Part shown: positions 3,001 through 6,000 of the stretch, piece by piece
Position numbering within the stretch: the stretch's first letter is position 1
How the letters are laid out: every line of letters begins with the position of its first letter
Position numbers: made by a program
Sequence record: NZ_CP061624.1
DNA from: a plasmid
DNA: 6,078 bases
Reading direction: 5' to 3' (one strand)

Positions 3001-6000
3001 TCATACAGTGAATGTTCGGTATTAGTGATCTGCTTAAATAGATCGACTCGATCTAAATCGACTGGCGCATAGAATGGCTGTAGGCGTTTGCCTGTTGAAA
3101 GCTCAACATTAGGAATCACAAAATTAAGCTCAAGCCTTGTCTCACCTGTGTCCTGATTAATTTTGTCTTGGTGCTGTACCCATAAAATTTGATATTGGTC
3201 TTTATCTAGTCCCGGGAATAAACATTCCTCAAAATTTTGCATGATTTTCTGTTTATCCTGGTCAGATAAATCATGCTCATAAAAGGACAAACAACCACTG
3301 GTATATTTTTTGGCAAAAGGACTGCTATCAATGAGTTGTGCTGTCAGTTCTACATCACCATTGAGCACTTGAGCATGTTCACGCTCTCGATCTTCACCTA
3401 ACAAATAATCGAGACAGCCTTTTGATAAACCTGAACCATGTCTAAAGAAATCAACGATCATCTGGACGTAACTCCCGAAGCTGCTGATCTATGGAAATCA
3501 ACAAATGAAGTAACTTCACTTTGTCAAAAGTACCTACCCCTGCAATATCGGTATTCACTGCTTTAGCAATCTGATTCACATTGTTGCCAATCCGACCAAG
3601 CTCTAAAATTAATGCTCGCTCTGTCTTGCTATACGAAGATTCAACAACCTTTGTTGCTTTAATTTTTTGGTCATCTTCTGCTTTGGAATTATGAATTTTA
3701 GTCGCTTTCTCTACTGCTGCTTGTCTAAGCAACTTTGCAATCGAACCATAAGGATTATTGGAATCGAGCAATTGATATTCTGATTCTGAAAGTCTGACTT
3801 TAAAGGTTCGTTCTCGAACTGCTTTGCTCTGTTTGTTTTCTTGTTCCTGTCCTGACATTTCAATCTACCCTGCTTTGGCTTTTGTAAGCTTTAAATTGGA
3901 AAATCTTTGATTTTTCTGTTTAAAGCTTTTCGGGGGTATCGGGGGTGAAGCCCCTGATCAAGGTCACAGACTATCACTGTTTAACGAAGTTAAATAGGGG
4001 TAGCTGTGTATCCTTGCTTATTTAAAAATGGACGAGTGAAATTCAATAAAAACTAATCAAATGACACGGTATATAAACTCTAGTAGGTATTGGCATGAAT
4101 CTTGTAAAAACAAATGCGCTCAACTCTTTCTCACCGTCCCCACATCCCTCGCTTTGCTCGGGCTGATGGTGAACGTTGAGAGAGTTTCGGCAATACTTTC
4201 CCTAAGAGGCTTTGATTTAAAAAAATCAAATATCCTCTTAAGTATTGCCGATTAACCTGTAATTGGGCTGACGGAGCCACGCATCGGTCGTATCCGCACA
4301 TGGTTTTGCTGACCATGCAGACAAGGACTAAAGGTTTTGCACCTTCTCCCACGCGCTCCCTGTCGAAGTATGGTGGTATCTCTGCGAGGATTACTCCAAC
4401 ATGCAACTTAACCAACCTATACAACTACTTCCAACGCTCCGCCTATGTGAGATCCCCTGTAAGCGGTTTAGCCTTGCGACTATCGCTACGATGCACCAGT
4501 GACACTTATTCCCTCCACATGCAACGCATATCTTCCTTAAAAAAGGCGCACAGAAGTAGATAAAGCTCGACCGTTAGGTGCTTATTTGATGATTTAAACT
4601 GCTGAATTAACGAAGGACTTCAAATTGAGGCTTGTCAAACTGTTCTAATTCTTTAAAATAGATAGTGGTACTAGCCTTTAAGGTGAATATCAGTATGAGT
4701 TGCAAGCTCTGCCGATCTTTCGTTAATTGATGTTGCAAGCATCAAATAACTGTACCCATCGAATTTAAAACTAATGGACAGATTTCGCAAGAGACCTGTC
4801 CATTATTTTTTTTGATTACACCTAAGAATTAAGCTGAAACTCCTATTCTTTGGACTATTAATGTCAAAACTTCCTAGATTTCATAACAAGCACATCGAAA
4901 AACGTAAGTATTCAAATAGCCTCCTAGCCAAATCTATTTCTTCTAAAGTACGTTTCTCTAATAAAACATTTTTTAATGTTAATTTGAGAGGATCCCGCCT
5001 ACGATCATGTTCATTCAAAAATATAAAAATTGTTTTATCTGATTTTTCAGGAGTAATCTTAAATAAGAATAGGTTTACGAATGTTCACTTCAAAAAGTGC
5101 GTATTTTATGCTGCTATTTTTAGAGATTGTCGCTTTAAAAATTGCACATTTGAAAAATGCATTTTTATTAATACAAATACAGAAAGCCTAAATCACTCGA
5201 TATTAGACTGTTCTAAAAAATATAATTTTTACGAAATGAAAATTCCTGATGACTTAAAAGATCAACTAACAGAATATAGAAATATTCCAATACTGCAAAA
5301 AAACCGTTTACTTCATCTAAAAGGGGGAAGAATCAATACCGCAACCTTATTCATTCTCCTATCCAAAATATCCAAATACAAGCTGCTAAATGGTCTTAAA
5401 AAAATTTATATTGAGGAACAAAGTAAAGTAAAAATACTTAGCACTTTCAAACTCCTTGAAGAAATAAAGAACCTAGTTGACACTAACACCGCATTCAAAC
5501 AGAATAATGGTGCTCTGCCCCATCCAATCGAAAGGTTGGATAGTTAAGACAATCACTGGGAGCTCACTATTGGATGTAACAATTCAATTAATAGTCTAAT
5601 TACTGACATTCTGGGAGGGCTTACTATGTTAGGCCGCATGGACACAACGCAGGTCGCATTGATACACCAAATTCTAGCTGCGGCAGATGAGCGAAATCTG
5701 CCGCTCTGGATCGGTGGGGGCTGGGCGATCGATGCACGGCTAGGGCGTGTAACACGCAAGCACGATGATATTGATCTGACTTTTCCCGGCGAGAGGCGCG
5801 GCGAGCTCGAGGCAATAGTTGAAATGCTCGGCGGGCGCGTCACGGAGGAGTTGGACTATGGATTCTTAGCGGAGATCGGGGATGAGTTACTTGACTGCGA
5901 ACCTGCTTGGTGGGCAGACGAAGCGTATGAAATCGCGGAGGCTCCGCAGGGCTCGTGCCCAGAGGCGGCTGAGGGTGTCATCGCCGGGCGGCCAGTCCGT

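What the first reader, a model, noticed from the sequence alone, without database searches (positions are those of the whole stretch)
4861..5547. Plasmid-borne pentapeptide-repeat protein with an unrecognised C-terminal domain, directly upstream of aadB
Fifteen uninterrupted pentapeptide repeats with F/L at the central position, predicted to give about four coils of a right-handed quadrilateral beta-helix. This is the hallmark of DNA-mimic proteins such as Qnr, MfpA, McbG and AlbG. The roughly 120-aa C-terminal half has no repeats and matches no motif I recognise. The gene is much more AT-rich than the rest of the plasmid. It lies on the same strand as aadB and the disrupted micro-ORF, so it may form an operon with them. 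It could protect gyrase or topoisomerase from quinolones or toxins. It could equally act in anti-restriction or plasmid maintenance, or even in replication, since no Rep exists. None of these is established.
Basis: partly seen in the sequence, partly recalled or inferred. Interest (0 to 1): 0.7.

Follow-up and report, generated by a model that had tools for sequence, protein, structure and literature searches.

The report
Orphaned pentapeptide-repeat gene on plasmid pRAY*
The gene is real and encodes a strongly basic pentapeptide-repeat protein with an unclassified helical tail; it is the first half of a small, undescribed mobile-element module (protein, structured RNA leader, tiny membrane peptide) whose second half was destroyed when the aadB resistance cassette inserted, so it is neither a Qnr-like DNA mimic nor the plasmid's missing replication protein.

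Summary
The window is the 6,078-bp Acinetobacter plasmid pRAY*. ORF 4861-5547 is a genuine gene under purifying selection. It has 15 uninterrupted pentapeptide repeats, a confidently predicted beta-helix (aa 17-121), and a ~90-aa helical C-terminal domain with no sequence-family or fold match.

Its main interpretations do not.
- The protein is very basic (pI 10.0, net +25) and has about 5 coils. Gyrase-protecting DNA mimics are acidic and have 8-9 coils.
- Qnr and MfpA model scores are far below their cut-offs.
- A replication role is unlikely. Rep-less relatives (pD36-1, pALWED1.8, p4_010045) share only window 1644-4774 and lack the gene. Homologues also sit in chromosomal islands, defence clusters and a prophage.

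In every lineage where downstream sequence is available, the gene is followed by a conserved structured leader and a 35-45-aa hydrophobic micro-ORF. The leader can sequester the micro-ORF's Shine-Dalgarno sequence. It also pairs with the micro-ORF's 3' end, much like hok mRNA fold-back, with some covariation.

In pRAY* the 591-bp aadB cassette inserted after the micro-ORF's ATG. aadB therefore uses that leader, Shine-Dalgarno sequence and start codon, and the pentapeptide gene is left orphaned.

Best guess (inferred, untested): the protein regulates or partners a toxic membrane peptide in a toxin-antitoxin or abortive-infection-like module.

The parts
4772..4813 (+). Terminator-like hairpin (stem GGACAG...CTGTCC, -17.6 kcal/mol) followed by a U tract. 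It marks the border between the conserved backbone (ends ~4769-4774) and the cargo segment that starts with the pentapeptide gene.
   Evidence: Fold. Homology to relatives that lack the pentapeptide gene ends at 4769-4774. The simple terminator scan did not call it.
4861..5547 (+). Pentapeptide-repeat plus C-terminal-domain (PRP-CTD) gene, 228 aa, pI 10.0, net charge +25.
   Evidence: Purifying selection: L004 vs L008 dN 0.056, dS 0.377; pRAY* vs L004, L008/L015 and L014 pN 0.27-0.34 against pS 0.64-0.83.
4909..5223 (+). Predicted right-handed quadrilateral beta-helix (aa 17-121, about 5 coils). The 15 canonical uninterrupted repeats are aa 28-102, nt 4942-5166.
5224..5493 (+). Helical C-terminal domain (aa 122-211) with the family motif LHxKGGKxN. 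No known family or fold.
5494..5547 (+). Disordered read-through tail (aa 212-228). Its last ~12 codons overlap the conserved leader element.
   Evidence: pLDDT below 50. The 206-213-aa close homologues stop upstream, while the nucleotides stay conserved as non-coding DNA.
5512..5541 (+). 5' element of the leader, GCTCTGCCCC plus the invariant hairpin ATCCAATCG-AAAG-GTTGGAT. It can pair with the Shine-Dalgarno sequence, with a proximal TGGGAGC (inside the CTGGGAGCTC stretch at 5556-5565), or with the micro-ORF 3' end.
5611..5628 (+). Shine-Dalgarno sequence (GGGAGGG) and ATG of the micro-ORF, now serving aadB (reading MLGRMDTTQ...).
   Evidence: RGI places the aadB start at this ATG.
5629..6078 (+). 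aadB gene cassette, 5' part. The 591-bp cassette continues at window 1-141. It is inserted at G|TTAGG, right after the micro-ORF ATG.
   Evidence: The cassette-free plasmid L002 aligns across the junction. Length 591 bp.
1..141 (+). aadB cassette, 3' part with attC.
142..255 (+). Severed remainder of the micro-ORF (codons 2-38 plus stop). Intact in L002 as MLGNTATVIGFTALLLTLLIQHLQNSLTFRLFGVKFLS.
   Evidence: The best 15-residue Kyte-Doolittle window averages 2.4, consistent with a transmembrane segment.
221..238 (+). 3' arm of the fold-back helix (CCTTTCGATTGTTTGGGG), complementary to leader 5518-5535.
3923..4769 (.). Context only. Conserved non-coding backbone that is the likely replication determinant. 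It is the part common to the replication-proficient pRAY*-delta1 and to Rep-less relatives that lack the pentapeptide gene.
   Evidence: HindIII map, PMC6160057.

Best explanation
Shown here. ORF 4861-5547 encodes a two-domain, strongly basic cytoplasmic protein. It has a short pentapeptide-repeat beta-helix (about 5 coils) and a ~90-aa helical domain specific to this family. The family is small and confined to mobile elements: 15 clusters among 5.8 billion proteins, and 31 representatives among 1.84 billion.

The gene lies in the cargo segment of pRAY*, not in its mob and origin backbone. It is the first cistron of a conserved three-part module:
1. the PRP-CTD gene;
2. a ~100-130-nt structured leader;
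3. a 35-45-aa hydrophobic micro-ORF.

The leader's 5' segment lies at or just after the PRP-CTD stop codon. It is complementary to the micro-ORF's Shine-Dalgarno sequence and also to the micro-ORF's 3' end.

In pRAY* the aadB cassette integrated at a GTTAGG secondary site right after the micro-ORF's ATG. The peptide is therefore no longer made. aadB inherits the module's leader, Shine-Dalgarno sequence and start codon. The PRP-CTD gene is an orphaned survivor.

Inferred mechanism. The micro-ORF encodes a membrane-active toxin or effector. Its translation is held off by the leader fold, in the manner of hok-type type I toxin mRNAs. Ribosomes finishing PRP-CTD translation would occupy the anti-Shine-Dalgarno segment, coupling the two cistrons. 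The basic PRP-CTD protein acts as the module's regulator, neutraliser or sensor, probably by binding nucleic acid (the leader RNA or a phage-derived ligand) or the peptide itself. The whole would be a toxin-antitoxin or abortive-infection-type cargo module.

In pRAY* itself the protein most likely has no essential role. Any residual effect would be on translation of aadB through the shared leader.
For: Gene and fold. Purifying selection.

Family size and constant architecture.

Cargo location.
- Homology to PRP-less, Rep-less relatives covers only window 1644-4774.
- tblastn finds the gene only in pRAY-type plasmids and two large plasmids.

Contexts.
- Chromosomal integrase-bearing island.
- AbiJ-like, PRP, micro-ORF, AbiTii, then a GNAT/DUF1778 toxin-antitoxin pair, with BrxL nearby.
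- Prophage, between a ParB-N/methyltransferase gene and the portal gene.
- Integrase or resolvase neighbours.

Module synteny.
- The leader and micro-ORF follow the gene in L002, L004, L008, L014, L023, L029 and L033; L027 also has the leader and the micro-ORF start before its contig ends. L024 and L030 carry a second sequence class; L028 has the class-B leader but its contig ends before the micro-ORF.
- A metagenome scan with the leader motif returned 8 loci. All 8 have a PRP-CTD ORF upstream.

Leader structure.
- RNAalifold pairs GCUCUGCCC with the Shine-Dalgarno GGGAGGGC around an invariant hairpin.
- The alternative proximal helix shows GCUC/GAGC changing to GUCC/GGAC.
- The fold-back helix has 16 pairs and is 98% paired. 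Two pairs change on both sides. Sliding the register drops pairing to 22-62%.
- Duplex energies against shuffles give z of -2.2 to -5.9 in class A (below -4 in four of five loci). Class B gives about -2, with unrelated sequence at the same positions.

Cassette insertion point and the cassette-free ancestor.

Asymmetry of loss. Peptide loss with the PRP gene kept is seen twice: in pRAY*, and in L041, where foreign sequence interrupts the leader. The converse is never seen.

Precedent. HalA of the Hailong system has pentapeptide repeats and binds oligo-dA (PMC13586616; PMC13434031). HalA is the best NCBIfam hit, at 37.8 bits and E 1.3e-9.
Against: - There are no expression, toxicity or binding data.
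- No promoter for the gene was identified. The promoter scan is no better than chance.
- Translation of the micro-ORF is unproven.
- Covariation rests on few events in 10-11 sequences, most of them closely related. Class-B duplex z-scores are only about -2.
- No antisense RNA was found, and none was looked for rigorously.
- PADLOC has no model matching either protein.
- The HalA similarity is confined to the generic repeat region and is far below the family cut-off of 250 bits.
- The C-terminal-domain model has only moderate confidence (pLDDT 70), so its fold is unassigned.
- In L004 the micro-ORF runs on to 103 aa.
- Co-transcription alone could explain the synteny, without any functional coupling.
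Confidence: 0.45

Rival explanations
1. Qnr/MfpA/AlbG/McbG-like DNA mimic that binds gyrase or topoisomerase IV and protects it from quinolones or peptide toxins.
For: It shares the pentapeptide beta-helix fold. A profile search of PDB sequences matches MfpA, AlbG and EfsQnr over the repeat region at E of 1e-9 to 1e-10. Foldseek also matches them. The gene is carried on a resistance plasmid.
Against: - Net charge is +25 and pI 10.0, and the whole family is basic. Qnr, MfpA and EfsQnr are negatively charged and use that charge to fit the GyrA saddle (PMC3089455).
- The helix has about 5 coils, not 8-9. It has a ~100-aa helical domain in place of the short dimerising helix (against PMC8145042).
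- The repeats are uninterrupted, so there are no Qnr loops.
- Qnr HMM scores 21 bits against a cut-off of 240. MfpA scores 17 against 360.
- No toxin-biosynthesis genes lie nearby.
Confidence: 0.04
2. The missing replication initiator, or an essential replication accessory protein, of the Rep-less plasmid pRAY*.
For: - It is the only intact sizeable backbone ORF in the 2,808-bp HindIII derivative pRAY*-delta1, which still replicates. The fragment 3923->653 is exactly 2,808 bp (PMC6160057).
- The protein is basic and could bind DNA.
- pRAY was still listed as having no identifiable Rep in 2025 (PMC12284255).
Against: - Rep-less relatives pD36-1, pALWED1.8 and p4_010045 share window 1644-4774 with pRAY* and encode no homologue.
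- pALWED1.8 has annotated only mobC, mobA and aadA27; its remaining ~1.1 kb is largely the shared non-coding region.
- Homologues lie in chromosomes, large plasmids with other replicons, and a prophage.
- There is no similarity to any Rep family and there are no iterons.
- The AAAAAATAT 'ori repeats' proposed in 1999 fall inside the ORF and are not clearly above chance for the window as a whole: 16 matches against 8.1 +/- 3.1 expected, with 4 of 200 shuffles reaching 16.
- The conserved non-coding element, without the gene, sits beside a 'plasmid replication DNA-binding protein' gene in OXA-72 plasmids.
Confidence: 0.04
3. A stand-alone anti-defence or establishment protein that helps the mobile element survive host immunity. 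Examples would be binding a nuclease or sensor, or masking incoming DNA. It would be functionally independent of the micro-ORF.
For: - The family is confined to mobile elements.
- In the prophage it sits next to an orphan ParB-N/N6-methyltransferase gene.
- A phage pentapeptide-repeat protein (24_60) counteracts the Sucellos defence system (bioRxiv 10.1101/2024.07.02.601686).
- The gene stays intact in pRAY* even though the peptide is lost.
Against: - No homologue was found in 50,697 phage genomes and no leader-motif match in IMG/VR viral contigs.
- The strict, lineage-wide pairing with the leader and micro-ORF is left unexplained.
- In the large plasmids it is embedded among defence genes, not among anti-defence or leading-region genes.
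- It is basic, unlike the acidic DNA-mimic anti-restriction proteins such as ArdA and Ocr.
Confidence: 0.15
4. The leader and micro-ORF form a self-contained type I toxin-antitoxin or addiction locus. The PRP-CTD gene merely shares its transcript and has an unrelated function that remains unknown.
For: The fold-back and Shine-Dalgarno-sequestering design needs no protein, as in hok/sok. PRP-CTD survives without the peptide in pRAY*.
Against: - The pairing persists down to about 30% protein identity and across two unrelated leader classes.
- The micro-ORF was never found without PRP-CTD (8 of 8 loci).
- The stop codon of PRP-CTD is always positioned at or just before the anti-Shine-Dalgarno segment. 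That suggests translational coupling, not mere neighbourhood.
Confidence: 0.2

Closest known systems
Topoisomerase-protecting pentapeptide-repeat proteins (MfpA, QnrB1/AhQnr, EfsQnr, AlbG, McbG)
   Same: Right-handed quadrilateral beta-helix built from A(D/N)LXX-type repeats with F or L at the central position. Some members are plasmid-borne.
   Different: This protein has about 5 coils, not 8-9. It is strongly basic, not acidic. It has no Qnr loops. It carries a ~90-aa helical domain in place of a 10-12-residue dimerising helix. HMM scores are ten-fold or more below the family cut-offs. It is always paired with a leader and micro-ORF.
HalA, effector of the Hailong anti-phage system (PDB 9nyi)
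   Same: HalA is the best NCBIfam hit over the repeat region (E 1.3e-9). Published descriptions give it pentapeptide repeats and a cytoplasmic 'crown' that binds oligo-dA between subunits, and the protein controls membrane permeability. Here a pentapeptide protein is paired with a membrane peptide in defence-island contexts.
   Different: HalA is a single ~340-aa polypeptide with a potassium-channel-like transmembrane domain, and it is partnered by the nucleotidyltransferase HalB. Here there is no transmembrane domain in the protein and no HalB-like gene nearby. The score is 37.8 bits against a cut-off of 250. The C-terminal domain is unrelated as far as can be tested.
hok/sok-type type I toxin-antitoxin loci (fold-back inhibition of the toxin mRNA)
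   Same: A small hydrophobic single-helix peptide, a sequestered Shine-Dalgarno sequence, and a long-range pairing between the 5' leader and the 3' end of the toxin reading frame. Carried on plasmids and prophages.
   Different: No antisense RNA has been identified. There is no sequence or Rfam match. A conserved ~210-230-aa protein gene sits immediately upstream, and its stop codon abuts the anti-Shine-Dalgarno segment. That arrangement is not part of any described type I system known to me.
Short pentapeptide-repeat proteins with helical caps and unknown function (e.g. Alr1298, Rfr32)
   Same: About 4-5 coils capped by helices. Alr1298 has mixed or positive charge patches (PMC8145042).
   Different: Those are cyanobacterial chromosomal proteins, some of them lumenal. 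They have no similarity to this C-terminal domain and no leader and micro-ORF partner.

Membership tests
Pentapeptide-repeat protein superfamily (Pfam PF00805/PF13576/PF13599) | At least 8 contiguous pentapeptide repeats matching the family HMMs above the gathering score | tested here: met
   15 contiguous repeats at aa 28-102. PF00805 scores 30.8 against 20.2 and PF13576 scores 33.4 against 27. PF13599 scores 34.9, below its cut-off of 38.
Pentapeptide-repeat protein superfamily (Pfam PF00805/PF13576/PF13599) | Right-handed quadrilateral beta-helix fold | tested here: met
   The AF2 model has 10-residue block means of pLDDT 90-97 over aa 31-120. Foldseek matches solved pentapeptide-repeat proteins at probability about 1.0. 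This is a prediction, not a solved structure.
Qnr/MfpA/AlbG/McbG gyrase-interacting DNA mimics | Net negative, DNA-like surface charge | tested here: not met
   pI 10.0 and net +25, with +19 in the beta-helix half. All relatives have pI 9.0-10.3. AhQnr, MfpA and EfsQnr are all negatively charged (PMC3089455).
Qnr/MfpA/AlbG/McbG gyrase-interacting DNA mimics | 8-9 coils forming a rod, with dimerisation through a short C-terminal helix | tested here: not met
   About 5 coils followed by a ~90-aa multi-helix domain, against the architectures reviewed in PMC8145042.
Qnr/MfpA/AlbG/McbG gyrase-interacting DNA mimics | Family HMM score above the curated cut-off | tested here: not met
   penta_rpt_Qnr 21.4 against 240; QnrA 22.3 against 450; MfpA 16.6 against 360.
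Qnr/MfpA/AlbG/McbG gyrase-interacting DNA mimics | Protects or inhibits gyrase; raises quinolone or toxin MIC | not testable with these tools
   Requires MIC measurements and supercoiling assays.
Plasmid replication initiator (Rep_3, Rep_1, RepPriCT_1 and others) | Homology to a Rep family | tested here: not met
   No Rep family in Pfam or NCBIfam. Only pentapeptide families match.
Plasmid replication initiator (Rep_3, Rep_1, RepPriCT_1 and others) | Adjacent iterons or binding-site repeats | tested here: not met
   No repeat family in 3859-5640 beyond two weak two-copy matches. AAAAAATAT-like sites are not clearly above chance.
Plasmid replication initiator (Rep_3, Rep_1, RepPriCT_1 and others) | Present in all plasmids that share the replicon | tested here: not met
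   Absent from pD36-1, pALWED1.8, p4_010045 and more than 140 other records that carry the conserved non-coding element.
Hailong effector HalA | Equivalog HMM above cut-off; potassium-channel-like transmembrane domain; adjacent HalB nucleotidyltransferase | tested here: not met
   37.8 bits against 250, and only over the repeat region. The model has no transmembrane segment. No nucleotidyltransferase neighbour other than the acquired aadB cassette.
hok-like type I toxin-antitoxin (applies to the downstream micro-ORF, not to the protein) | Small hydrophobic peptide whose mRNA has a sequestered Shine-Dalgarno sequence and a 5'-3' fold-back | tested here: met
   35-45-aa peptides with a transmembrane-like segment. 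Shine-Dalgarno pairing. Fold-back helix 98% paired, with changes on both sides of two pairs. Duplex z of -2 to -6. All predicted, not probed.
hok-like type I toxin-antitoxin (applies to the downstream micro-ORF, not to the protein) | Cis-encoded antisense RNA antitoxin; peptide toxicity | not tested
   No systematic antisense-promoter analysis was done. Toxicity needs experiments. No Rfam family matches.

The most novel reading that the evidence does not exclude
PRP-CTD, the leader and the micro-peptide together form a previously undescribed class of mobile-element toxin-antitoxin or abortive-infection system. It would work like a 'split Hailong'. A basic pentapeptide beta-helix protein binds a nucleic-acid ligand (its own leader RNA or a phage-modulated oligonucleotide) and so gates production or activity of a membrane-depolarising peptide. 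The peptide's mRNA is additionally locked by a hok-like fold-back. A medically widespread resistance plasmid would have co-opted this module's control region to express aadB.
Probability: 0.25. Interest if true: 0.75.

Novelty: new variant of a known kind. Interest (0 to 1): 0.55.

Why it matters
First, it corrects a tempting misreading. Not every plasmid-borne pentapeptide-repeat protein is a Qnr-type quinolone-resistance factor. This one has the wrong charge, length and architecture.

Second, it narrows the open question of how the globally distributed Rep-less pRAY plasmids replicate. The only sizeable intact backbone ORF in the minimal replicon is dispensable by comparative evidence. That leaves the ~850-bp non-coding segment 3923-4769, which is shared with 158 Acinetobacter plasmid records.

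Third, it shows where the promoterless aadB cassette gets its translation signals. It uses the Shine-Dalgarno sequence, ATG and structured leader of a disrupted micro-ORF. Aminoglycoside resistance from pRAY* may therefore be under that leader's control.

Fourth, it defines a compact, conserved and experimentally tractable three-part module found in defence islands, plasmids and prophages. This is a candidate new toxin-antitoxin or defence system, and it includes a new protein domain and a new cis-regulatory RNA.

Tried and rejected
- Fold searches with the full model. PDB and BFVD return only generic pentapeptide hits with low TM-scores. The afdb50 library was unavailable.
- HalA lead. It was followed through the literature. 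The original Nature paper is not held in the library. The similarity is limited to the repeats, so I use it only as a mechanistic precedent.
- Rep hypothesis. I took it seriously because the 2,808-bp HindIII fragment contains the gene. I rejected it on comparative grounds.
- Iterons and AT-rich repeats: none of significance.
- Rfam. Scans of the window and of intact modules gave no family for the leader or for the origin-like region.
- Promoter and terminator scan around the gene was uninformative, no better than shuffled sequence.
- Species-representative genome scan found only the A. ursingii cassette-free plasmid and one marginal Clostridia hit. The viral-contig scan with the leader motif found nothing.
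- The 103-aa ORF downstream in L008/L015 first looked like a conserved partner. It is unrelated to the 103-aa ORF in L004, which is an extended micro-ORF. I dropped it as a module component.
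Full report
IDENTITY OF THE WINDOW

The 6,078-bp window is a complete circular copy of the Acinetobacter gentamicin/tobramycin-resistance plasmid pRAY*. It is 100% identical over the queried regions to NZ_CP033770, NZ_CP095411, NZ_MK531539 and pRAY*-v1 NC_019311.

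Its genes are as follows:
- Abi_2/AbiD-like, 252-920, minus strand.
- A 181-aa ORF, 1053-1598, minus strand, with a strong PHROG match.
- mobA, 1647-3461, minus strand.
- mobC, 3451-3858, minus strand.
- About 1 kb of non-coding DNA.
- The ORF in question, 4861-5547, plus strand.
- The aadB cassette, which runs across the window ends.

The literature states that pRAY-type plasmids have no identifiable Rep (PMC5559437; PMC6160057; PMC12284255). A full-text search for papers that mention both pRAY and pentapeptide returned 24 papers. All 20 listed are unrelated to the plasmid, and none connects it with a pentapeptide-repeat protein. RefSeq annotates the ORF as 'pentapeptide repeat-containing protein'.

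Residues 28-102 are 15 uninterrupted pentapeptides with F, L or I at the centre. Two Pfam pentapeptide models score above their gathering thresholds.

AlphaFold2 on a 12-sequence family alignment gives mean pLDDT 80.2 and pTM 0.78. It predicts a beta-helix over aa 17-121 (10-residue block means 90-97 over aa 31-120), five helices over aa 130-213, and a disordered tail from aa 211. Foldseek and a profile search against PDB sequences match solved pentapeptide-repeat proteins, but only over the repeat region.

The gene is truly protein-coding. Homologues at 49-61% identity align end to end. Between L004 and L008, dN is 0.056 and dS is 0.377. Between pRAY* and L004, L008/L015 and L014, pN is 0.27-0.34 against a saturated pS of 0.64-0.83.

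A profile of this domain, searched against 1.84 billion representative proteins, finds just 31 proteins. Nearly all full-length ones are 210-240 aa, with an N-terminal pentapeptide helix and this domain at the C-terminus. They share a conserved LHxKGGKxN motif. So this is a real, narrow, two-domain family, which I call PRP-CTD.

NOT A DNA MIMIC

The protein has pI 10.0 and net charge +25, with +19 in the beta-helix half. All 22 other relatives of 200-260 aa tabulated (plus pRAY* itself) have pI 9.0-10.3.

The gyrase-interacting pentapeptide proteins differ in each defining respect:
- They are all negatively charged and use that charge to dock on the basic GyrA saddle (PMC3089455).
- They have 8-9 coils and dimerise through a 10-12-residue helix (PMC8145042).
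- Gram-negative Qnr proteins also need two surface loops. These are absent from this uninterrupted repeat array.

NCBIfam Qnr and MfpA scores are ten- to twenty-fold below their cut-offs. The defining features of that functional class were tested and not met.

NOT THE MISSING REP

I took this idea seriously. The HindIII fragment 3923->653 is exactly 2,808 bp, the size of the replication-proficient pRAY*-delta1 (PMC6160057). The PRP-CTD gene is its only intact sizeable backbone ORF.

Comparative evidence argues against it:
- The Rep-less relatives p4_010045 (4,344 bp), pALWED1.8 (4,135 bp) and pD36-1 (4,754 bp) share only window 1644-4774 with pRAY*. That is mobA, mobC and the non-coding stretch. 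They have no PRP-CTD homologue.
- The non-coding stretch is conserved in 158 Acinetobacter plasmid records.
- Combining these relatives with delta1 (which lacks mobA and mobC) leaves 3923 to about 4769 as the common replication determinant.
- PRP-CTD homologues occur on chromosomes, on large plasmids with other replicons, and in a prophage.
- There are no iterons. The AAAAAATAT repeats proposed as an origin in 1999 (cited in PMC5559437) lie largely inside this AT-rich ORF and are not clearly above chance.
- A terminator-like hairpin with a U tract (4772-4813) separates the backbone from the cargo segment that begins with this gene.

WHAT IT BELONGS TO

In Acinetobacter the gene sits in several different settings:
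- On pRAY-type plasmids.
- On two large plasmids, in a cluster of AbiJ-like, PRP-CTD, micro-ORF, AbiTii and a GNAT/DUF1778 toxin-antitoxin pair, near BREX and restriction-modification genes.
- In a chromosomal island with a tyrosine integrase.

Remote relatives lie in a gut-metagenome prophage, between a ParB-N/methyltransferase gene and the portal gene, and next to integrase or resolvase genes.

The one constant neighbour is downstream: a nucleotide-conserved leader and a hydrophobic micro-ORF of 35-45 aa.
- Class A peptides have the form MVGN-ATV-GF-AL...RLFGV. They are found in L002, L004, L008, L014, L023, L029 and L033, down to about 30% protein identity. L027 has the class-A leader and the micro-ORF start, but its contig ends before the micro-ORF is complete.
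- Class B loci (L024, L030) have a different leader and peptide. L028 carries the class-B leader, but its contig ends before the micro-ORF.

A metagenome scan with the class-A leader motif returned 8 loci. All 8 have a PRP-CTD ORF upstream. No locus showed the micro-ORF without the protein gene.

THE LEADER

The leader has several predicted structural features:
- RNAalifold pairs the 5' segment GCUCUGCCC with the micro-ORF's Shine-Dalgarno sequence GGGAGGGC, around an invariant hairpin.
- An alternative proximal pairing shows a double compensatory change, GCUC/GAGC to GUCC/GGAC.
- The leader segment CCCCAUCCAAUCGAAAGG is complementary to the last codons of the micro-ORF (CCUUUCGAUUGUUUGGGG). 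This helix has 16 pairs and is 98% paired across 10 sequences. Two pairs change on both sides, and pairing falls to 22-62% when the register is slid.
- Duplex energies against shuffled controls give z of -2.2 to -5.9 in class A (below -4 in four of five loci).
- Class-B loci have unrelated sequence but keep a complementary pair of segments at the same two positions, with z of about -2.

This is the architecture of hok-type type I toxin mRNAs: a sequestered Shine-Dalgarno sequence plus a 5'-3' fold-back. No Rfam family matches it.

The PRP-CTD stop codon always lies at or just upstream of the anti-Shine-Dalgarno segment. In pRAY* and L033 the ORF reads through it, which explains the non-conserved, disordered 17-residue tail. 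This placement suggests translational coupling.

WHAT HAPPENED IN pRAY*

The A. ursingii plasmids NZ_CP068183 (5,501 bp) and NZ_KB849714, and metagenome contig L038, carry the same backbone without the cassette and with an intact 38-aa micro-ORF.

The 591-bp aadB cassette (5629-6078 plus 1-141) inserted at G|TTAGG, immediately after the micro-ORF's ATG. Three things follow:
- aadB is now read from the micro-ORF's Shine-Dalgarno sequence and ATG, giving MLGRMDTTQ....
- The rest of the micro-ORF (142-255), including the fold-back arm at 221-238, lies stranded beyond attC.
- The peptide can no longer be made.

In L041, sequence unrelated to the module interrupts the leader upstream of where the micro-ORF should begin.

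Loss of the peptide with the protein gene kept is thus seen twice. The converse is never seen. This fits a model where the peptide is the toxic effector and the protein is its regulator or neutraliser. It argues against the protein being a toxin that the peptide neutralises.

MECHANISM: SHOWN VERSUS INFERRED

Shown here:
- The fold class, charge and family limits of the protein.
- Its location in the cargo segment.
- The synteny of the module.
- The complementarities in the leader.
- The cassette insertion point.

Inferred:
- The micro-ORF is a membrane-active toxin under leader control.
- PRP-CTD, as a basic beta-helix protein, binds nucleic acid or the peptide to regulate or sense.

The nearest precedent for a pentapeptide helix that binds nucleic acid in an immune effector is HalA of the Hailong system. 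HalA has pentapeptide repeats plus a potassium-channel domain, and oligo-dA binds at its cytoplasmic crown (PMC13586616; PMC13434031). HalA is also the best NCBIfam hit for the repeat region. At 37.8 bits against a cut-off of 250 it is a precedent only, not evidence of membership.

I put about 0.45 on the regulator or partner-of-a-toxic-peptide reading. About 0.2 goes to the protein being a functionally independent co-transcribed cargo gene, and about 0.15 to a stand-alone anti-defence role. Gyrase protection and replication each get about 0.04.

NOVELTY AND VERDICT

A pentapeptide-repeat annotation already exists in RefSeq, so the bare observation is known at the annotation level. To my knowledge, and in the searched literature, the following are not described:
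- The C-terminal domain family.
- Its basic character.
- The obligatory leader and micro-peptide partnership, with a hok-like fold-back.
- The fact that the aadB cassette of pRAY* hijacked that module's translation start.

I rate it a new variant of known kinds (pentapeptide-repeat proteins and type I-toxin-like loci), of moderate interest at 0.55. The upside comes if the module proves to be a new defence or toxin-antitoxin class.

Noticed in passing
window 3859-4769 (core 4071-4769): This non-coding stretch is conserved at 78-100% identity in 158 Acinetobacter plasmid records. They include Rep-less 4-5-kb plasmids and 9-27-kb OXA-72-type plasmids. In L022 its copy (record 737-1440) lies about 160 bp upstream of a 'plasmid replication DNA-binding protein' gene. 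Only short, non-conserved ORFs lie in it and there is no Rfam hit. It is the best candidate for the Rep-independent origin of pRAY-type plasmids.
   Followed up: partly
L002 (NZ_CP068183, 5,501 bp), L017 (NZ_KB849714, 5,596-bp contig), L038: These are cassette-free versions of the pRAY* backbone (97.6-100% identical) in A. ursingii and in a metagenome. They carry an intact 38-aa micro-ORF and look like the ancestral state before aadB capture.
   Followed up: yes
window 5611-5634 and 138-150: aadB sits at a GTTAGG secondary site right after the micro-ORF's ATG, and no integrase gene was found in the window's ORFs or annotation. The ATG at 5626 and the GGGAGGG Shine-Dalgarno sequence belong to the micro-ORF. 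Annotations disagree on the aadB start: window 5626 (RGI) or 5638 (RefSeq).
   Followed up: partly
window 1053-1598 (-): This 181-aa ORF of unknown function matches phage family phrog_37247 at E 3.7e-44, but has no Pfam, NCBIfam or PADLOC hit. It is AT-rich (32% GC), like the other cargo genes.
   Followed up: no
window 252-920 (-): This Abi_2 family gene has weak PADLOC hits to PD-T4-5 and AbiD. It converges on the severed micro-ORF. With the PRP module and orf181 it makes the cargo segment look like a miniature defence island.
   Followed up: partly
window 1715-2131 and 2135-2746 (-), inside mobA: Two long ORFs (138 and 203 aa) lie in an alternative frame nested within mobA. The 203-aa one has a hydrophobic segment. 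They may be overlapping mob accessory genes as in ColE1-type mob regions, or they may be chance.
   Followed up: no
NZ_CP046324.1 (1,342 bp, 'Corynebacterium xerosis plasmid'): This record is 100% identical to window ~4154-5495. It is almost certainly a contaminant or a mis-assembled fragment of pRAY, not a Corynebacterium plasmid.
   Followed up: no
L041 (metagenome contig, from about locus position 1030): This is a pRAY-type locus in which sequence unrelated to the module replaces the leader about 70 nt downstream of the start of the conserved 5' motif. It may be the IS insertion described upstream of aadB in pRAY*-v2, but I did not confirm an IS. It would be a second, independent disruption of the module downstream of the PRP-CTD gene.
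   Followed up: partly
L004-L007, locus 8772-9083: In the chromosomal island of A. baumannii NIPH 67 and relatives, the micro-ORF has lost its stop codon and extends to 103 aa. The hydrophobic N-terminus and the RLFGV motif are retained.
   Followed up: no
L003 (NZ_CP038652, 5,734 bp): This is a pRAY-like plasmid about 86% identical across its whole length. The PRP-CTD frame gives only 50% tblastn identity and no gene is annotated. It is either a degraded copy or a record with sequencing or assembly errors.
   Followed up: no
L024/L025 (gut metagenome, locus 1-6900): The class-B module sits in a prophage-like region directly after an RHS/YD-repeat toxin gene, a 138-aa ORF and a ParB-N/N6-methyltransferase gene, and before the portal gene. 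This is an unusual position where a terminase gene would be expected.
   Followed up: no
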